Source of the DNA: Minisyncoccota bacterium
GTDB taxonomy: Bacteria > Patescibacteriota > Minisyncoccia > Phycocordibacterales > UBA9973
NCBI GenBank assembly: GCA_036169735.1
Contig: JAVHNX010000036.1
Span: 13,681-77,680 of the forward strand
Direction: 5' to 3'
DNA length: 64,000 bases
Positions 7,190 through 61,636 of this stretch are shown here, one piece after another; position 1 is the first letter of the stretch, and every line of letters begins with the position of its first letter. A program made the position numbers and the translations under genes. Below the pieces are notes generated by a model that was given only the letters and a program-made list of their open reading frames with translations, did no database searches and was not told the origin of the DNA.

Positions 7190-8530
7190 ATGGTTAAATC
7201 AATCAAAAAATCAAAGAATATATATATGGATTATGCCAGCGGTGCTTCAGCTAATCCTGCCAATCCTGGAGCAATTCACGATTTTGGTGTGAAAGCGAAA
7301 AAACAACTGAATGAAGCAAGGGAAGAAATTGCCAAGATTTTAGGTGCACACTCAAATGAAGTGGTTTTTACCTCAGGGGCAACAGAGAGTAATAATTTGG
7401 CAATTTTGGGAATACTAAGAAAATATTTTGAAACTTTTAGCCCCTATGTCAGACATAGGGGAGTTTCCCCTATGTCTGACATAGGGGCTGTTCCACATAT
7501 TGTTACCACAAACATAGAACATGCATCTGTGCTGGAGGTGTGTAAATATTTAGAAAAAACAAAACAAATAGAAGTGACTTATGTTCCAGTAGAAGAAAAT
7601 GGAATAGTAGATCCGGAGAAAATAAAAAAATCACTTAGACCAAATACGATTTTTGTTTCTGTTATGTATGCGAATAATGAGATTGGAAGTATCCAGCCAA
7701 TAAGAGAAATTGCAAAAGAAATTAGACATTATCGAAAACAAGAAGCGGAAAGAATAAATGAAAAAAGGTCGGACATTAAGAATTTAGAAAGGTCCGACCT
7801 TGGTATTTTTCCAGTTTTTCATACCGATGCGACTCAAGCAATAAATTATTTACCGATCAATGTTGAAAAACTTGGCATTGATTTGTTATCTTTTAATGGA
7901 TCAAAAATTTATGGGCCGAGTGGTGTTGGAGCTTTGTATGTAAAAAGACAGACACCTATCACTAGTATTATATTTGGCGGTGATCAAGAATTTGGATTAA
8001 GACCAGGGACAGAAAATATTGTCGGTATTGTTGGATTAGCAAAAGCTTTAAAAGTTGTAGAACAAATAAAAGATAAAGAAACAAAACGTTTAATTAAACT
8101 AAGAGATTATTTTATTAAAAAAATGTCAAGGTTAAGCCTTGACACTACACATTCCCCGAAACCAGGTTTAGGGGAACTTCCCCTAAACCTGGTTTCGGGG
8201 AAAGTTATACTAAATGGTGACCTAGAAAATAGACTACCAAACAATATAAATATCACTATTCCAAAAATTCCAAGTGATCTTTTGGTAATAGAACTTTCTG
8301 CTCATGGAATTATGGCTTCTGTCAAAAGTGCTTGTAAATCTGGTGACGAAAAGGCATCCCATGTAATACAAGCTATTCGAGAAGCACAACTAGGGGAGTT
8401 ATTGGTTAATAAAGAAATTGACGGATCAATCAGATTTTCTCTTGGTAGACAAACAACCAAAGATGATATTGACTACACACTAAAGGCTTTGTCTCAAATT
8501 TTGACCAAACTAAAAAGGTGGTATAATTAG
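7190..8530 (+). CDS. Cysteine desulfurase, NifS/IscS family (class V aminotransferase), carrying four in-frame palindromic insertions
   Basis: N-terminus IYMDYASGASANP...FTSGATESNNLAILG matches the IscS start, and ...SFNGSKIYGPSGVGALYV matches the PLP-lysine region. At 446 aa it is longer than typical because of the inserted peptides SPYVRHRGVSPMSDIGA, RSDIKNLERSDLG, MSRLSLD and HSPKPGLGELPLNLVSG. Confidence 0.8.
   Translation: MVKSIKKSKNIYMDYASGASANPANPGAIHDFGVKAKKQLNEAREEIAKILGAHSNEVVFTSGATESNNLAILGILRKYFETFSPYVRHRGVSPMSDIGAVPHIVTTNIEHASVLEVCKYLEKTKQIEVTYVPVEENGIVDPEKIKKSLRPNTIFVSVMYANNEIGSIQPIREIAKEIRHYRKQEAERINEKRSDIKNLERSDLGIFPVFHTDATQAINYLPINVEKLGIDLLSFNGSKIYGPSGVGALYVKRQTPITSIIFGGDQEFGLRPGTENIVGIVGLAKALKVVEQIKDKETKRLIKLRDYFIKKMSRLSLDTTHSPKPGLGELPLNLVSGKVILNGDLENRLPNNINITIPKIPSDLLVIELSAHGIMASVKSACKSGDEKASHVIQAIREAQLGELLVNKEIDGSIRFSLGRQTTKDDIDYTLKALSQILTKLKRWYN
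7439..7490. repeat. GC-rich composite palindrome inserted in-frame in nifS
   Basis: agcccctatgtcagacatagggg-ag-ttt-cccctatgtctgacataggggct: a 52-nt palindrome made of two CCCC...GGGG half-palindromes; encodes SPYVRHRGVSPMSDIGA. Confidence 0.7.
7765..7801. repeat. Hairpin element aaggtcggac...gtccgacctt inserted in-frame in nifS
   Basis: 10-bp arms aaggtcggac/gtccgacctt with a 17-nt loop. The same arms form the stem of the rsmI terminator at 58619-58672. Confidence 0.6.
8123..8145. repeat. ATG..CAT hairpin element (family 1) inserted in-frame in nifS
   Basis: atgtcaagg-ttaag-ccttgaca. Near-identical copies at 40142-40164, 57884-57906 and the variant at 49828-49850. Encodes MSRLSLD. Confidence 0.7.
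8154..8200. repeat. GC-rich composite palindrome inserted in-frame in nifS
   Basis: ccccgaaaccaggtttagggg-aactt-cccctaaacctggtttcgggg: a perfect 47-nt palindrome; encodes PKPGLGELPLNLVSG. Confidence 0.7.
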
Positions 8531-9319: not shown

Positions 9320-9324
9320 TTTAA

Positions 9325-9348
9325 CCCTATTGCTCGCGAGCGACGGGG
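9325..9348. promoter_or_regulatory. 24-bp operator-like palindrome abutting the clpB -35 box
   Basis: ccctattgCTCGCGAGcgacgggg. Its reverse complement matches 49974-49997 (ccccgtcgCTCGCGAGtgacaggg) at 16 contiguous positions. Confidence 0.4.
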
Positions 9349-9376
9349 TTGACATTTAATTTATTTATTCTATTAT
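9349..9376 (+). promoter_or_regulatory. Sigma70-type promoter of clpB
   Basis: TTGACA-16 nt-TATTAT, about 15 nt upstream of the clpB ATG (short leaderless-like 5' end). Confidence 0.5.
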
Positions 9377-28822: not shown

Positions 28823-28877
28823 TTGCGCAGGCCGACCGGGCCGAGCATAGCAAATTTTCAGTAGAAAATTATGTGTG
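28823..28877 (+). repeat. Conserved ~55-nt element (copy 2) in mnmA 5' leader
   Basis: TTGCGCAGGCCGACCGGGCCGAGCATAGCAAATTTTCAGTAGAAAATTATGTGTG is about 85 percent identical to the minus-strand sequence at 4435-4488. Confidence 0.5.
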
Positions 28878-28901: not shown

Positions 28902-30023
28902 ATGCCACTAAAAAATAAAACTATATTTGTGGGAATGTCAGGCGGGGTGGATTCCTCTGTTTCCGCTGCTATTTTAAAAGACCAGGGGCATAATGTTGTT
29001 GGGGTTTTTATTCGTACCTGGCACCCTGATTTTTTGGTTTGTAATGAAGAAGATGAGCGCCGCGACGCTATGCGCGTCGCGGCGCATTTGGATATTCCAT
29101 TTTTAACTTTTGACCTTTCAGATGTTTACAAAAAAGAAGTCGCAGACTATATGATTGCTGAGTATAAAATGGGCCGTACTCCAAACCCAGATGTGATGTG
29201 CAACAAAGAAGTGAAGTTTGGTGCTTTCTTGAAAAAGGCTCTTGAAATGGGTGCAGATTATGTTGCGACAGGGCATTATGCGCAAGTTTTAGAAAAAAAA
29301 TTAGTTAAAGGTGTTGATTCTTCAAAAGATCAATGTTATTTCTTGTGGACTTTAAAACAAGAACAACTAAAACATATTTTATTTCCCGTAGGGCATTTAA
29401 ATAAAACAGCGGTAAGAAAATTGGCAAAGAAATATAAATTGCCTGTCGCAGAAAAGAAAGACAGTCAAGGGATTTGTTTCCTAGGTGATATTGATTTGAA
29501 AGATTTTTTGAAACATTATATTAAAGAAAAAAAGGGAAAAGTAATAAATGAAAAAGGAGAAGAAATCGGATATCACGATGGTGCTGTTTTTTTGACTCTG
29601 GGAGAACGTCACGGTTTTACTATTACGAAAAAAGGCCCAAATGATGGGGCTTATTATGTTGTTAGTAAAGATGTAAAGAAAAATATCATAATTGTGTCAC
29701 AGATTTCCCCCCTCCTTAATAAGGAGGGGGTTGGGGGTGGTAATTCAAAGAATCACCACCCCGCTCTAAAGAGCACCCTTCCTCAAAAAGGAGGGGAAAA
29801 AATTAGAATTAGTGACATTAATTGGATCTCAAGTACTCCAGATGAAAATAAAGAATACACAGCTCAAGTACGTTATCATGGAGAATTTTTACCTTGCCAA
29901 GTAATTTGTGGAAGTCCGACTTCCGCAAAAGTAATTTTTGAAAAACCTGTACTCGTTGCTCCTGGACAATCAATTGTTTTCTATGATAAAGATATTTGCT
30001 TTGGTGGTGGGGTAGTAGCCTAA
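28902..30023 (+). CDS. mnmA: tRNA-specific 2-thiouridylase MnmA, with an in-frame GC-rich palindromic insertion
   Basis: Start trimmed to MPLKNKTIFVGMSGGVDSSV (PP-loop SGGVDSS). Catalytic Cys region present. Insertion peptide LLNKEGVGGGNSKNHHPALKSTLPQKGGEK comes from palindromes at 29707-29796. Confidence 0.8.
   Translation: MPLKNKTIFVGMSGGVDSSVSAAILKDQGHNVVGVFIRTWHPDFLVCNEEDERRDAMRVAAHLDIPFLTFDLSDVYKKEVADYMIAEYKMGRTPNPDVMCNKEVKFGAFLKKALEMGADYVATGHYAQVLEKKLVKGVDSSKDQCYFLWTLKQEQLKHILFPVGHLNKTAVRKLAKKYKLPVAEKKDSQGICFLGDIDLKDFLKHYIKEKKGKVINEKGEEIGYHDGAVFLTLGERHGFTITKKGPNDGAYYVVSKDVKKNIIIVSQISPLLNKEGVGGGNSKNHHPALKSTLPQKGGEKIRISDINWISSTPDENKEYTAQVRYHGEFLPCQVICGSPTSAKVIFEKPVLVAPGQSIVFYDKDICFGGGVVA
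29707..29796. repeat. Cluster of GC-rich palindromes inserted in-frame in mnmA
   Basis: cccccctccttaat-aaggaggggg, then gggggtggtaattc-aaa-gaatcaccacccc, then cccttcctc-aaaaa-ggagggg. The first resembles the priA insert ccctccccttggcaaggggaggg. Confidence 0.65.
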
Positions 30024-48792: not shown

Positions 48793-48825
48793 AAACACCC
48801 TCCTTGTATAAAGGAGGGTGTTTTT
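48793..48825 (+). terminator. Rho-independent terminator after rpmE
   Basis: aacaccctcc-ttgtataa-aggagggtgtt followed by a T-run. Confidence 0.65.
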
Positions 48826-49850: not shown

Positions 49851-49973
49851 GCATATTGTTTATAGTATTTATCCACACAGTATAGTTTCATTGCTTTTTC
49901 TCACTTTTGTGCTATACTGCTCCAGTAGTTTCTCCAATAGCTTTTTGTTTGAGTTGTGAGTTTTGATTTGTAC

Positions 49974-49997
49974 CCCGTCGCTCGCGAGTGACAGGGT
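49974..49997. promoter_or_regulatory. 24-bp operator-like palindrome upstream of the RRM protein gene promoter
   Basis: ccccgtcgCTCGCGAGtgacaggg; partner of 9325-9348 upstream of clpB. Confidence 0.4.
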
Positions 49998-50016
49998 TTG
50001 GCACCAATTAGGCCAA

Positions 50017-53211: not shown

Positions 53212-53628
53212 ATGATTAAATCAAAACAACTGGCTCAGGCTTTATTTGAACTCTCAGAAGAGGAGAACTTGGTAGCAGGACTACCAAGTTCACTTGGTAG
53301 TCCTGCTACCAAGTCATTGGATGAGAAGTTTTTTAGTTTTATTGAAAAAAGAAATTTGAAAGGACAGATGAACTCAGTCCTTTATCACTTGGAAAGAATC
53401 ACTGAACAAGAAAAAGAAAAGAAGGGTATACAGATAGAAACAGCTCATGAGATAAAAGCTGAGACTGCCAAACAAATAAAGACTTTCCTAAAAGCTGATC
53501 ACCTGACTGAATCATTAAAAATCAAAAAAGAATTAGTCGCAGGATTTCGAGCGAAGTTCGGAGGAAAGATTTATGATTCGAGTATTATGACTGGTTTGAA
53601 GAAATTAGAAAGAGAGATTGCCAAATAA
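53212..53628 (+). CDS. atpH: F0F1 ATP synthase subunit delta (short, 138 aa)
   Basis: Operon position. C-terminal IKKELVAGFRAKFGGKIYDSSIMTGLKKL resembles the OSCP/delta C-terminus. Confidence 0.65.
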   Translation: MIKSKQLAQALFELSEEENLVAGLPSSLGSPATKSLDEKFFSFIEKRNLKGQMNSVLYHLERITEQEKEKKGIQIETAHEIKAETAKQIKTFLKADHLTESLKIKKELVAGFRAKFGGKIYDSSIMTGLKKLEREIAK

Positions 53629-59692: not shown

Positions 59693-61636
59693 CTATAAGA
59701 TATTTTCTGGATCGATATTTACTGAAAATTCACGAGGAAGTAACAAAAGTTTTTCAAGAAGTTTTTCATCAATTTTAGAATTTGTAGATAGTTCAGGTAA
59801 GGACCATTTTTTAGTATCTATTTTTATTAACATATTTGTGACATATTTATCTTTTATTTTACTCACGAAACCACTAAAAATCTCAGGGTCATAATCTTTG
59901 AATACTTCTTCAAGGGCTTTTTTTGTATGAATTGAATCTTCTTTATTTCCCATGTGCGTGATTTTAATAAAACGTTTAAATGGAGGATATCCAAGATTTT
60001 TTCTATCTTCTAATTCTTCACGCACAAAAGACAATATGTTTTCTGTCTCAACTGCATGGATAGCTGGGTCTTGCTTATTTTTGGTTTGGATAATAAGTTT
60101 GTCTTTTGTTTTGGAAATTATCGAAAAAATAAGTTGGATAATTTTCTCATTCATTTTGAAACTAGGCACACTCCAAAGTGAATCAAAAGAAGCGATGACT
60201 GAGAGGGTAACAGGTTCTTTTATATATAGTAGTGCCATCTCAGTACCGACGAGTATTGATCCAGGATTCTCTTCAAATTCCTTTATTATTTTTATTGCAC
60301 CTTTGGTTGTCTTGGCTGATTCTTTGTCGAGTTTAAAAATTTTTGTTTCAGGGAAAAGTTTTTGAGCTTCTTCAAATACAGTATCAGTACCAATACCGAG
60401 CGGCATAAGATTCCAACTATTACAATTTAAACATCTGGTCTCAGGATCTTTTTCTGTATTACATCGGTTACAAGCAAACATTCTTTTTTTACCATCTCTA
60501 GATAAATAAAGGACGACAGGTACGGAACATTTTGTGCACATGACTGGTTCATTACAATCTCGGCAAAGTGTCTCTGTTGCCAGGCCTTTTCGTAGTGAAA
60601 ATATAAAAATGCTTTCTTTTTTTGTAATCACTTCTTGTATTTCTTGGGCAGTATCGTCAGTTAATACTTTAAATTTCTCTTCCTTTTTTTCTGGTATTTT
60701 TATTTCTCCTTCAAAATTTAACCTGAAAGATAATGGGTGTACTTCAGAAAAATTATCCATTTCTTTTCGAGCTATTGTTTCAAAATGAAGTAGGGAATCA
60801 CCGAGTATAAGTTTGGCACTTATCTTTGAAGCATAAAGTTCCACAAATGAACGCAGGTCGAAATAAGGCCTATTCATCATTTTGTAAGCATTGGAACTCT
60901 CATGTTCCAGGATAATAGTCCCAAAATCACGACGTGGTATAGATAAAAATGGTGCAGTACCAAATACGAGGACTGGGTGTGAGGAAGTTACAATCTCATC
61001 AAATTTTTTTAAAATCTTTTTTGGTCCCAATCCTGCATACATTGAGAAGCTGAAGTTCTCGATTCCTTTCGATAATGTTTTTGAAAATATCTCAATATCT
61101 ATCTCAGTAGGTAAAACTATAAAAACTGATTTTTTTTCTGCGAATGATCCACGGATCAGAGTCTTGTAAAAAGAAATACGATCTTCAAGTGGATATTGAA
61201 AAAGTAATTTTTCTTTTTTTATATTCACCCCTCCCAACCCTCCCCTTGGCAAGGGGAGGGCAATGGTGTAATCTTCATTTTTTATTTTAGATATCTTGTC
61301 GTACTCTTCTCGAAAGATTGATGGGATCAAAGTCACAATTGCATCATTTTTTCTTGTTGCAAAATATTTACTGATGTCGAGAGTGGACTCGATATATTCT
61401 TTTAAGAAAATTGAGTTCTCTTTTACTTCAGTTATTTTTTTTAGATTGAATGCCAGGTTTTTTATATCAGATTTTGTGTCAGTTGCTTTCTCTGAAGAGA
61501 CCGCTAGACCAAGTATTTGTTTATTTCGAATTGGCACAGTCACAATACTCCCATCAGGTATATTTTTTGAGCTAAAATAGGTCAGATTTTCCCTGAAAGC
61601 TCCTTTTTCCAACGGGATTACTGTCACGATTTTCAT
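59693..61636 (-). CDS. priA: Primosomal protein N' (PriA) homolog; helicase motifs degenerate
   Basis: N-terminal 3'-DNA-binding domain (MKIVTVIPLEKGAFRENL...GSIVTVPIRNKQILGLAV). Cys-rich zinc-binding region CRDCNEPVMCTKCSVP...CNRCNTEK...CLNCNS. No recognizable GxGKT Walker A; DExH reads ILEHESS. Contains GC-rich palindromic insert encoding LPLPRGGLGG. Confidence 0.65.
   Translation of the reverse strand: MKIVTVIPLEKGAFRENLTYFSSKNIPDGSIVTVPIRNKQILGLAVSSEKATDTKSDIKNLAFNLKKITEVKENSIFLKEYIESTLDISKYFATRKNDAIVTLIPSIFREEYDKISKIKNEDYTIALPLPRGGLGGVNIKKEKLLFQYPLEDRISFYKTLIRGSFAEKKSVFIVLPTEIDIEIFSKTLSKGIENFSFSMYAGLGPKKILKKFDEIVTSSHPVLVFGTAPFLSIPRRDFGTIILEHESSNAYKMMNRPYFDLRSFVELYASKISAKLILGDSLLHFETIARKEMDNFSEVHPLSFRLNFEGEIKIPEKKEEKFKVLTDDTAQEIQEVITKKESIFIFSLRKGLATETLCRDCNEPVMCTKCSVPVVLYLSRDGKKRMFACNRCNTEKDPETRCLNCNSWNLMPLGIGTDTVFEEAQKLFPETKIFKLDKESAKTTKGAIKIIKEFEENPGSILVGTEMALLYIKEPVTLSVIASFDSLWSVPSFKMNEKIIQLIFSIISKTKDKLIIQTKNKQDPAIHAVETENILSFVREELEDRKNLGYPPFKRFIKITHMGNKEDSIHTKKALEEVFKDYDPEIFSGFVSKIKDKYVTNMLIKIDTKKWSLPELSTNSKIDEKLLEKLLLLPREFSVNIDPENIL
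61226..61268. repeat. GC-rich palindrome inserted in-frame in priA
   Basis: cacccctcccaa-ccctccccttggcaaggggaggg-caatggtg. Confidence 0.65.

What the first reader, a model, noticed from the sequence alone, without database searches (positions are those of the whole stretch)
29707..29796. About 90 nt of GC-rich palindromes inserted in-frame in mnmA; ccctcc..ggaggg family shared with priA
Three consecutive GC-rich hairpins add about 30 residues (LLNKEGVGGGNSKNHHPALKSTLPQKGGEK) to MnmA between conserved blocks. The first, cccctccttaat-aaggagggg, resembles the priA insert ccctccccttggc-aaggggaggg at 61238-61260. Both contain a strong SD-like AAGGAGG on one arm. This is a second family of in-frame palindromic elements, distinct from the nifS ones.
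Basis: seen in the sequence. Interest (0 to 1): 0.6.

Follow-up and report, generated by a model that had tools for sequence, protein, structure and literature searches.

The report
Translated palindromic mobile element inside mnmA
The 90-base GC-rich insert in the tRNA-modification gene mnmA of this tiny (Patescibacteria) bacterium is a real, translated copy of a hairpin-rich mobile repeat. The same repeat sits in many essential genes of related bacteria, and it looks like a gene-less miniature of a small cassette that elsewhere, in several phyla, carries a DUF559 nuclease gene.

Summary
Window 29707-29796 is a 54% GC block in a 35% GC window. It folds into four consecutive hairpins, not three (RNA -55 kcal/mol, z -6.2). 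It lies in frame between the central and C-terminal domains of MnmA, where AlphaFold gives a low-confidence loop.

It is a repeat-family member. Near-identical copies occur at this site in 15 of the 120 closest MnmA orthologues and at a second MnmA site in 6. They also occur in TsaD, RNase R, MetRS, UvrA, GatA, IF-2 and topoisomerase I, and between genes, in many Patescibacteria.

Copies inside genes keep their length in one class modulo 3 (20 of 21), while intergenic copies do not (3 of 8). So the element is read through, not removed.

The priA insert is the minimal form of the same family. It replaced 27 nt of linker since divergence from a 91%-identical relative.

The end modules (CCCCCTCC..GGAGGGGG + TTGGGGGTGGTAA, and its complement + hairpin) also flank DUF559 (Vsr-like nuclease) genes in Patescibacteria, Desulfobacterota and Bacteroidota. 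In an independent sample chosen by the DUF559 protein, 20 of 35 genes had such flanking inverted repeats against 0 of 66 controls.

Best reading: a MITE-like derivative of a DUF559 cassette, tolerated like Rickettsia RPEs. I found no published description.

The parts
28935..30023 (+). mnmA (tRNA 2-thiouridine synthase), the host gene. The ORF is open from a GTG at 28875. The database protein P0001 starts at the ATG at 28935.
   Evidence: All three Pfam domains match: tRNA_Me_trans, tRNA_Me_trans_M and tRNA_Me_trans_C. phmmer against solved MnmA structures 9hlv, 2hma and 2der gives E about 1e-81. P0001 is 100% identical.
29707..29798 (+). Whole long-form palindromic element (H1, tail, H2, H3, H4). 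It is read in frame as PLLNKEGVGGGNSKNHHPALKSTLPQKGGE.
   Evidence: Sequence and fold. Alignment of 29 distinct copies gives A1, with a consensus structure of four hairpins. AlphaFold pLDDT is below 50 for P0001 residues 263-286.
29708..29730 (+). H1: CCCCCTCCTTA-A-TAAGGAGGGGG, an 11-bp perfect hairpin. It is the conserved end hairpin of the family.
   Evidence: I4; I21. Conserved in 85 stretches of GTDB genomes.
29731..29745 (+). Tail TTGGGGGTGGTAA(TT). It is the conserved G-rich tail that follows H1 and forms the left arm of H2.
   Evidence: The exact 19-mer AGGGGGTTGGGGGTGGTAA is found in Patescibacteria, Spirosoma/Cytophagales, Geobacteraceae/Desulfuromonadales and other lineages.
29750..29762 (+). 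Complement of the tail (GAATCACCACCCC), the right arm of H2. In DUF559 cassettes the gene lies between the tail and this complement.
   Evidence: I3.
29763..29774 (+). H3: small hairpin GCTC-TAAA-GAGC.
   Evidence: Other copies have GCCC/GGGC, GCC/GGC or GCTCCGAC/GTCGGAGC stems, so the stem changes but stays paired.
29776..29796 (+). H4: CCCTTCCT-CAAAA-AGGAGGGG, the second end hairpin. This copy has one G.T/U pair.
   Evidence: The subfamily change CTCCTCC/GGAGGAG versus CCCCTCC/GGAGGGG keeps pairing. The relative L035 has the fully paired CCCCTCC.
59693..61636 (-). priA (primosomal protein N'), the second host gene.
   Evidence: Pfam PriA_3primeBD. Homologues are named primosomal protein N'.
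61225..61273 (-). Minimal form of the same family in priA: a degenerate tail complement, then the hairpin CCCTCCCCTTG-C-CAAGGGGAGGG, then the tail TTGGGAGGGGTGA. It reads ..DYTIALPLPRGGLGGV..
   Evidence: Against the 91%-identical relative L088, about 48 nt here replace 27 nt of linker. The architecture matches the 49-nt palindrome in Spirosoma L058.

Best explanation
The segment is one copy of a family of small non-autonomous palindromic repeats. It behaves like a MITE or REPIN and has landed in the linker between two MnmA domains.

Only one of its six reading frames is free of stop codons. Copies inside genes survive when they lie in that frame, in a surface linker, and with a length that restores the host frame. 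The ribosome then reads through the element, and MnmA gains a roughly 30-residue Gly/Pro/Lys-rich disordered loop. This is the outcome described for Rickettsia palindromic elements.

The family is built from two end modules:
- hairpin CCCCCTCC..GGAGGGGG followed by the tail TTGGGGGTGGTAA;
- the complement of that tail, followed by a small hairpin and a second CCYCTCC..GGAGGRG hairpin.

In Geomobilimonas and other Desulfobacterota, and in some Patescibacteria, these same modules bracket a roughly 110-140-codon DUF559 gene, which encodes a Vsr-like PD-(D/E)xK nuclease. The mnmA element therefore looks like that cassette with the gene deleted, and the priA insert looks like the minimal hairpin-plus-tails form.

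Shown here:
- repeat-family membership;
- colonisation of many genes, in frame;
- the reading-frame constraint on genic copies;
- a recent gain in priA;
- the physical association of the end modules with DUF559 genes.

Inferred, not shown:
- that the DUF559 nuclease nicks or cuts at these hairpins and drives spread of both the cassettes and the gene-less copies in trans;
- that insertion is coupled to loss of a few local bases.
For: Repeat family and hosts.
- The 19-mer spanning the H1/tail junction hits 85 stretches of GTDB species genomes.
- In low-GC Patescibacteria loci, most copies lie in long ORFs in the frame that reads PLLxKEGVGGG.
- The hosts are TsaD, RNase R, MetRS, UvrA, GatA, IF-2, topoisomerase I, a PaaX-like protein and a peptidoglycan-binding protein, plus MnmA at two sites.
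- Other copies are intergenic.

Patchiness.
- Of 120 MnmA homologues, 15 carry the family at this site, 6 carry it at the other site, about 50 have none, and the rest carry at least 8 other insert families.

Read-through.
- Core length is 2 mod 3 in 20 of 21 genic copies (83, 86, 89 or 98 nt) against 3 of 8 intergenic copies (Fisher p = 0.0025).
- Only one frame of the long form is open (direct reading).

Location.
- The site lies between Pfam domains.
- It aligns to a gap and short linker in solved MnmA structures.
- pLDDT is below 50 with no secondary structure.

Recent activity.
- The priA copy is absent from relatives at 91%, 83% and 81% identity.
- An unrelated palindrome entered atpH on the same timescale.

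Constraint or homogenisation.
- The element is 80-86% identical between window and distant orthologues, against 70-76% for the flanking mnmA sequence.
- Stems change but stay paired.

DUF559 link.
- L080 reads H1-TT-GGGGGTGGT-[DUF559]-ACCACCCC-H3-H4. Its left end is 35/36 identical to the window element and its right end 34/44.
- In L022, 38-nt inverted ends flank a DUF559 gene. In L036 and L073 the units repeat on both sides of the gene.
- L011 compared with L003 shows the same MetRS-TatD spacer with and without the gene.
- DUF559 is the top Pfam family among the 73 nearest neighbours of modules outside Patescibacteria.
- Eight of the 9 DUF559 genes in these loci lie within 150 nt of the 19-mer (p about 3e-10). 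The ninth has analogous ends with a GGGGTGAGG tail.

Independent sample chosen by the DUF559 protein.
- 34 of 62 loci have flanking inverted repeats scoring at least 16, above all shuffles (maximum 14.5).
- In the subset with full flanks, 20 of 35 genes pass against 0 of 66 displaced control intervals (p = 5e-12).
- The repeats found are of the same hairpin, optional small hairpin and GGGGTGGT type.
Against: - No DUF559 gene lies in the 64-kb window or in 30 kb of its close relative, so a trans-acting nuclease in this genome is not shown.
- DUF559 has no demonstrated transposase or homing activity. The association could equally mean that DUF559 genes prefer to land in these hairpins.
- No target-site duplication or clean empty site was found. 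Both recent events, in priA and atpH, are replacements of 12-27 nt rather than simple insertions.
- The mnmA copy is shared by orthologues down to about 70% identity, so this particular copy may be old and vertically inherited rather than recently mobile.
- The genome loci were selected with an exact 19-mer. That inflates apparent conservation and limits the covariation that can be seen (only 2 pairs show double changes).
- Translation of the insert is inferred from reading-frame statistics, not from protein data.
Confidence: 0.72

Rival explanations
1. It is a REP/REPIN-type element mobilised by a RAYT (IS200/IS605-like Y1 transposase). The DUF559 neighbours would be incidental.
For: The basic unit is a 20-40-nt imperfect palindrome with a conserved flanking motif. 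In Spirosoma it forms inverted doublets of about 100 nt that fold into one long hairpin, like REPINs. Copies outside Patescibacteria are extragenic and often sit just after stop codons. Some Spirosoma copies are preceded by GTAG.
Against: - There is no consistent GTAG or CGTC tag, which defines the two REP superfamilies (abstract of PMC3733652, seen). The conserved flank is TTGGGGGTGGTAA.
- No Y1 transposase or any other transposase family ranked among the Pfam families most often matched by the 73 nearest neighbours. DUF559 ranked first.
- REP families are normally specific to a genus, yet this module is identical across three phyla.
Confidence: 0.1
2. The insert is removed from expression. 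Either it is excised from the mRNA or ribosomes bypass it, as with the 50-nt gap of phage T4 gene 60 or the GC-rich inserts of yeast mitochondrial genes. In that case MnmA would be made without the extra 30 residues.
For: The block is a very stable GC-rich hairpin region in an AT-rich gene. Mobile bypass elements are known (preprint 10.1101/2022.08.31.505936, listed). No protein data are available here.
Against: - An excised or bypassed element has no need for an open frame or for a length divisible by three. Yet genic copies vary only in steps of 3 nt (20 of 21) while intergenic copies do not.
- Genic copies almost always sit in the single stop-free frame.
- No Rfam family matched near its gathering score; the best hit scored 24 bits against a threshold of 42.
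Confidence: 0.05
3. It is a selected, functional feature rather than selfish DNA. It could be a structured mRNA pause site or SD-like pause between two domains that aids co-translational folding. It could also be a flexible Gly-rich linker that the protein needs.
For: - Inserts sit in inter-domain linkers.
- The element is more conserved than the flanking coding sequence.
- Hairpins are kept by paired changes.
- AAGGAGG occurs twice in the element.
Against: - About 40% of close orthologues do without any insert at this site, and others use unrelated sequences there.
- The same DNA occurs intergenically and in both orientations.
- Solved MnmA structures have a short linker here.
- Conservation is equally explained by recent spread or gene conversion among copies.
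Confidence: 0.08
4. It is an ancestral, clade-specific protein segment of MnmA. The similarity to priA and other genes would be a coincidence of GC-rich low-complexity sequence.
For: Fifteen orthologues at 69-78% identity have the same peptide at the same position.
Against: - DNA copies of 90-100 nt occur in unrelated genes and in spacers.
- One MnmA (P0002/L001) has two copies at two sites that are identical over 75 consecutive nt from AAGGAGGGGG to GGAGGAGA.
- The exact 19-mer plus the matching left arm recur in other phyla.
Confidence: 0.03

Closest known systems
Rickettsia palindromic elements (RPEs; Ogata et al. 2000, cited from my own knowledge)
   Same: Both are short (about 100-150 nt) palindromic repeats found inside protein-coding genes, in frame and without stop codons. 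Both add a surface peptide to essential proteins of a reduced-genome bacterium. In both cases there are several families per lineage and also intergenic copies.
   Different: The phylum is different (Patescibacteria). No sequence relationship was tested or is expected. This family is built of four short GC-rich hairpins with a G-rich tail, and its end modules are shared with DUF559 gene cassettes and occur in other phyla. To my knowledge no autonomous partner is known for RPEs.
REP / REPIN elements with RAYT transposases
   Same: Both have an imperfect palindrome with a conserved flanking motif. Both occur as single units and as inverted doublets that fold into one long hairpin (Spirosoma). 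Both are extragenic just downstream of genes in organisms outside the candidate phyla radiation.
   Different: There is no GTAG or CGTC tag and no RAYT gene nearby. The sequence is identical across phyla, and the element occurs inside genes in Patescibacteria.
MITEs derived from insertion sequences by internal deletion (for example Correia elements or IS630-type MITEs)
   Same: Gene-less elements of 50-110 nt keep the two ends of a longer element that carries one gene (L080, L022 and L150 compared with the window).
   Different: The gene is a Vsr-like DUF559 nuclease, not a known transposase. No target-site duplication was found, and the ends are themselves hairpins.
Vsr-like homing endonucleases (I-Bth0305I, PMC3239194; free-standing genes in 'fractured genes', PMC2677866). 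DUF559 is grouped with Vsr in the PD-(D/E)XK survey (PMC3424549).
   Same: A small nuclease of the Vsr fold acts as the sole gene of a selfish element. PMC3424549 places VSR, DUF559 and DUF2726 in one clade that includes a group I intron homing endonuclease.
   Different: Those enzymes sit in introns or between split inteins and have no hairpin-and-tail terminal repeats or gene-less derivatives. No activity has been shown for these DUF559 proteins.
Translational bypass inserts (phage T4 gene 60; GC-rich inserts of Magnusiomyces mitochondrial genes, the latter cited from my own knowledge)
   Same: Both are GC-rich structured mobile inserts inside coding sequence of an AT-rich genome.
   Different: Those inserts break the frame and are skipped. 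The inserts here keep the frame and vary in steps of three bases.

Membership tests
MnmA (host gene identity) | HUP/PP-loop domain, PRC-barrel domain and C-terminal beta-barrel domain, in that order | tested here: met
   Pfam PF03054, PF20259 and PF20258 all score above their cut-offs. E about 1e-81 to solved MnmA structures.
In-frame palindromic repeat of the RPE kind (working definition) | The same DNA repeat is present in several unrelated protein-coding genes, in frame and free of stop codons | tested here: met
   Copies occur in MnmA (two sites), TsaD, RNase R, MetRS, UvrA, GatA, IF-2, TopA and PriA.
In-frame palindromic repeat of the RPE kind (working definition) | Insertion at surface or linker positions of the host protein | tested here: met
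   The site lies between Pfam domains. It aligns to a gap in solved structures. pLDDT is below 50 for residues 263-286.
Rickettsia RPE families proper | Sequence similarity to the RPE-1 to RPE-8 consensus sequences | not tested
   No RPE consensus was available in the tools. The different phylum and base composition make membership unlikely.
REP/REPIN-RAYT | Conserved GTAG or CGTC tetranucleotide at one end of the palindrome (PMC3733652) | tested here: not met
   The flank is RAGC/AAC on the left and TTGGGGGTGGTAA on the right. GTAG appears only in a few Spirosoma copies.
REP/REPIN-RAYT | A RAYT (Y1 transposase) gene associated with the repeats | tested here: not met
   No Y1_Tnp or other transposase family appeared among the top families of the 73 nearest-neighbour ORFs. 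Whole genomes were not searched.
MITE | Terminal inverted repeats | tested here: met
   The outer inverted repeat 29704-29729 / 29776-29801 is 77% complementary. L022 has 38-nt inverted ends.
MITE | A longer, gene-carrying element with the same ends | tested here: met
   In L080 the same H1 and tail, and the same tail complement, H3 and H4, enclose a DUF559 ORF. The arrangement is general in an independent sample.
MITE | Target-site duplication | tested here: inconclusive
   No clean empty and filled pair was found for this family. The priA event is a 27-to-48-nt replacement. The Spirosoma ends T|TACC..GGTA|A would be compatible with a TA duplication, but this is not shown.
Free-standing Vsr-like homing endonuclease gene | Encodes a Vsr/DUF559-fold nuclease | tested here: met
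   PF04480 with a best E-value of 2e-32 among neighbours. phmmer links the nine genes. Invariant residues are listed for alignment A3.
Free-standing Vsr-like homing endonuclease gene | Presence/absence polymorphism of the gene at an otherwise conserved locus | tested here: met
   The MetRS-[element]-TatD spacer occurs without the gene in L003 and L027 and with it in L011 and L052. In L011 the element is duplicated around the gene.
Free-standing Vsr-like homing endonuclease gene | Sequence-specific cleavage of the empty target | not testable with these tools
   This requires biochemistry.

The most novel reading that the evidence does not exclude
DUF559 proteins are the nucleases of a previously unrecognised family of very small selfish elements that spans several phyla. 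Each element is about 450-600 nt and consists of one Vsr-like nuclease gene between hairpin-plus-G-rich-tail ends. Their gene-less derivatives of 50-110 nt spread through genomes. In the tiny AT-rich genomes of Patescibacteria these derivatives are fixed in frame inside essential housekeeping genes, which remodels the linkers of a large fraction of the proteome.
Probability: 0.4. Interest if true: 0.85.

Novelty: new variant of a known kind. Interest (0 to 1): 0.66.

Why it matters
Three consequences follow if this reading holds.

1. Linker and loop insertions may explain much of the length variation and the odd Gly/Pro-rich segments in Patescibacteria proteins. In MnmA alone, two hot spots hold at least nine insert families. 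This affects annotation, alignment and phylogeny of these organisms, and the reading of their "reduced" genomes.

2. DUF559, a very common domain of unknown function, would gain a concrete and testable role, with defined DNA substrates taken from cultured isolates (Geomobilimonas luticola, Spirosoma spp.).

3. Near-identical end modules in Patescibacteria, Bacteroidota and Desulfobacterota point to horizontal movement of a minimal element between episymbionts and free-living bacteria.

Tried and rejected
- Peptide search in the 5.8-billion-protein index. A doubled 63-aa query found only 6 candidates and 1 hit. The word index does not suit this short, repetitive query.
- Exhaustive phmmer search with the 34-aa insert. 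It gave only 7 hits at E <= 0.001, too few to survey hosts. I switched to DNA patterns instead.
- Rfam. There were no matches at gathering thresholds apart from tRNAs. At relaxed thresholds only chance-level hits far below family cut-offs appeared.
- Other collections. blastn of the element against plasmids and phages found nothing. The 19-mer is absent from viral contigs.
- Literature. Searches for palindromic or in-frame elements in Patescibacteria/CPR, for the literal sequence and peptide, and for DUF559 with repeats or MITEs found no description.
- AAGGAGG as the ribosome-binding site of the DUF559 gene. I considered and dropped this, because the spacing to the start codon is 19-24 nt in L022 and L011.
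- G.T mismatches as a substrate for a Vsr-like enzyme. G.T pairs recur in H1 (15 of 29 copies) and in H2 (25 of 29). I kept this only as speculation.
Full report
**What is there**

The window is AT-rich (35% GC). Its closest protein matches come from Candidatus Nomurabacteria / Paceibacterota / Minisyncoccia, that is, Patescibacteria.

mnmA occupies 28935-30023 on the + strand, and all three MnmA Pfam domains match. Positions 29707-29796 are 54% GC and read in frame as PLLNKEGVGGGNSKNHHPALKSTLPQKGGE.

The block folds into four consecutive hairpins:
- H1, 29708-29730, with an 11-bp perfect stem;
- H2, 29733-29762;
- H3, 29763-29774;
- H4, 29776-29796.

As RNA the minimum free energy is -55 kcal/mol (z = -6.2). 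As DNA it is -28.8 kcal/mol (z = -6.3). No shuffle out of 200 folded as well. The window holds six perfect GC-rich hairpins with arms of at least 10 bp, whereas thirty first-order Markov simulations produced none. The observation therefore stands, with four hairpins rather than three.

**Is it an insertion?**

I aligned the 120 closest MnmA homologues. They show two length-variable hot spots. One follows ATGHYA. The other is this site, between the central barrel and the C-terminal barrel.

At this site 49 homologues have only a short native linker, 15 carry this same peptide, and the rest carry other recognisable insert families. At the first hot spot 6 homologues carry this same peptide. One protein, P0002, has it at both sites, and its two DNA copies are identical over 75 consecutive nt, from AAGGAGGGGG to GGAGGAGA.

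Solved MnmA structures align with a gap and a short linker here. An AlphaFold model gives pLDDT below 50 and no secondary structure for residues 263-286.

The element does not simply add 90 nt. The native linker of about 10-13 residues is largely gone.

**A repeat family in many genes**

The 19-mer AGGGGGTTGGGGGTGGTAA spans the junction of H1 and the following tail. It occurs in 85 stretches of the GTDB species genomes.

In the low-GC Patescibacteria loci, most copies lie inside long ORFs in the frame that reads PLLxKEGVGGG. The hosts include TsaD, RNase R, MetRS, UvrA, GatA, IF-2, topoisomerase I, a PaaX-like protein and a peptidoglycan-binding protein. Other copies are intergenic, for example in the MetRS-TatD spacer of several species.

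Two forms exist:
- a long form of 83-98 nt from the first to the last paired base (about 95-110 nt with its flanks), made of H1, tail, H2, H3 and H4;
- a short form of about 36-40 nt, made of H1 plus the tail.

Twenty-nine distinct long copies align into four conserved hairpins. H3 varies in sequence (GCTC/GAGC, GCCC/GGGC, GCC/GGC, GCTCCGAC/GTCGGAGC) but stays paired. H4 switches between CTCCTCC/GGAGGAG and CCCCTCC/GGAGGGG.

**Translated or removed?**

Only one of the six frames of the long form lacks stop codons (read directly).

The distance from the first to the last paired base is 83, 86, 89 or 98 nt (all 2 mod 3) in 20 of 21 copies inside genes. Only 3 of 8 intergenic copies fall in that class (Fisher p = 0.0025). 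An element that was spliced out or bypassed would not need this. I conclude that ribosomes read through it. This is an inference from sequence statistics, not from protein data.

**The priA link**

PriA homologues also have a variable linker after the 3'-DNA-binding domain.

The 91%-identical relative (L088, a Minisyncoccia metagenome-assembled genome) has 27 nt there. The window instead has about 48 nt (61225-61273, - strand): ATTACACCATTG, then CCCTCCCCTTG-C-CAAGGGGAGGG, then TTGGGAGGGGTGA. This is a hairpin flanked by the tail and a degenerate complement of the tail. The 49-nt palindrome TTACCACCCCCAA-CCCCCTCCT..AGGAGGGGG-TTGGGGGTGGTAA in Spirosoma has the same architecture.

The more distant relatives resemble L088, so the window state is derived. 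This is a recent gain, and it replaced local sequence. On the same timescale an unrelated palindrome replaced 12 nt with 54 nt in atpH. So palindromic elements have recently entered coding sequence in this lineage.

**The wider family and DUF559**

The 19-mer, together with the matching left arm of H1, also occurs outside Patescibacteria:
- in cultured Spirosoma species and a Cytophagales metagenome-assembled genome;
- in Geobacteraceae and Desulfuromonadales, including the isolate Geomobilimonas luticola;
- in Desulfocapsa and a Kapaibacterium.

In Lentimicrobiaceae and Bacteroidales contigs the same tail follows a different hairpin (CCCCCTTTAGGGGG). In all these lineages the copies are extragenic, often directly after stop codons. 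In Spirosoma they form inverted doublets of about 100 nt.

A Pfam scan of the 73 ORFs nearest to these modules ranked DUF559 (PF04480) first. No transposase family was among the families most often matched.

All nine DUF559 genes present in the 19-mer-selected loci are bracketed by such modules. Eight lie within 150 nt of the 19-mer (p about 3e-10). The ninth has analogous ends with a GGGGTGAGG tail.

The clearest case is Geomobilimonas (L080). It reads H1 CCCCCTCCTTGATAAGGAGGGGG-TT-GGGGGTGGT, then a DUF559 ORF, then ACCACCCC-GCCCTCCGGGC-ACCCCTCCTGAACCAAGAGGGGAA, and the unit repeats in tandem. The window element has the same two ends, 35/36 and 34/44 identical, with a 13-nt loop where the gene would be.

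Other arrangements point the same way:
- In a Nomurabacteria contig (L022), 38-nt inverted ends flank the gene directly.
- In L011 the gene sits between two copies of the element, in a spacer that holds a single element and no gene in L003.

**Independent test**

I then selected loci by the DUF559 protein rather than by the DNA motif, taking 80 metagenome loci.
- Of the 62 with at least 200 nt on both sides, 34 had an inverted repeat between the upstream and downstream flanks scoring at least 16. That is above every shuffle (maximum 14.5).
- The repeats were of the same type: CCCCTCC..GGAGGGG, an optional small hairpin, then a GGGGTGGT, GGGGTGAGG or GGGGGATTT tail.
- With displaced pseudo-gene intervals in the same loci as controls, the result was 20 of 35 against 0 of 66 (p = 5e-12).

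**Interpretation**

The mnmA segment is best read as a gene-less miniature of a DUF559 cassette. It is tolerated inside an essential gene because it is in frame, free of stop codons and located in a surface linker. This works like the Rickettsia palindromic elements, but membership of the RPE families was not tested and is unlikely.

It fails the defining tests for REP/RAYT elements, having no GTAG/CGTC tag and no RAYT gene nearby. It meets two of three MITE criteria: it has inverted ends and a longer gene-carrying relative with the same ends, but target duplication is unresolved.

The PD-(D/E)XK survey groups DUF559 with Vsr and with a group I intron homing endonuclease (PMC3424549). Vsr-like homing endonucleases are documented (PMC3239194 and PMC2677866). 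A selfish-nuclease role is therefore plausible, but it is not shown.

The element is more conserved between distant orthologues (80-86%) than the flanking coding sequence (70-76%). That points either to constraint on the DNA or RNA structure or to homogenisation among copies.

**Limits**

- No DUF559 gene lies in the window or in 30 kb of its close relative.
- The genome loci were chosen with an exact 19-mer, which biases conservation estimates.
- Copy numbers per genome could not be counted.
- No empty and filled pair was found for the long form.
- Direction of causality between DUF559 genes and the hairpin modules is open.
- I found no published description of these elements in the searchable literature. 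This does not prove that none exists.

Noticed in passing
window 7439-7489 and 8149-8205 (nifS-like gene 7190-8530): Two long palindromes of unrelated sequence lie in frame in the cysteine desulfurase gene. One has perfect 24-nt arms and the other has 28-nt arms at 96% complementarity. Each is a hairpin followed by its own reverse complement.
   Followed up: partly
window 53263-53316 (atpH, 53212-53628): A perfect 23+23-nt palindrome (ACTTGGTAGCAGGACTACCAAGT..) adds 14 codons to the ATP synthase delta subunit. The 92%-identical relative L088 has 12 nt where the window has 54 nt, so this is a recent in-frame replacement by a different palindrome family.
   Followed up: partly
window 29057-29085 (inside mnmA): A 12-bp perfect GC-rich palindrome (GCGCCGCGACGC-TATGC-GCGTCGCGGCGC) encodes the clade-conserved peptide RRDAMRVAA. 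In L002 both arms changed together (GCGTCGCGACGC on both sides) at the cost of an Ala-to-Thr change. L001 has lost the palindrome. Its function is unknown.
   Followed up: partly
window 48798-48818: An intergenic hairpin ACACCCTCCTT-GTATA-AAGGAGGGTGT is followed by TTTTT. It lacks the G-rich tail, so it is probably not a family member.
   Followed up: partly
window 9323-9350 and 49965-50008: Two intergenic GC-rich palindromes share the core CCC(C)GTCGCTCGCGAG(C/T)GAC(G/A)GGG. This may be a third repeat family or a regulatory site.
   Followed up: no
MnmA homologues P0001-P0120 (alignment /scratch/mnma.aln; A4): Besides this family, at least eight other peptide families recur at the two MnmA hot spots and swap between them. 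Examples are ..SHSNL..AYAEKS....FALGD..GTHD....DIFLLKNSSCS....PLTRGRLGGG..PYQGEG....ELPEGPxPV....GLAGVGDPE.. and ..LPASGLRH... This suggests many more in-frame element families in this clade.
   Followed up: partly
L080 4480-5720 (Geomobilimonas luticola JCM 17780): A tandem array holds at least two DUF559 cassettes, each preceded by H1 and the tail and followed by the tail complement, H3 and H4. In L080 and L073 the PLLxKEGVGGG frame of the module is open and continuous with the DUF559 ORF.
   Followed up: partly
L027 5660-6300; L014 4560-5341: More distant DUF559 genes are flanked by analogous ends with other sequences (CCCCCTCTCC..GGAGAGGGG + GGGGTGAGG; CCCCTTTAGGGG + ATTTAGGGGTGAGG). The hairpin-plus-GGGGTG-tail design may therefore be general for DUF559 genes.
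   Followed up: partly
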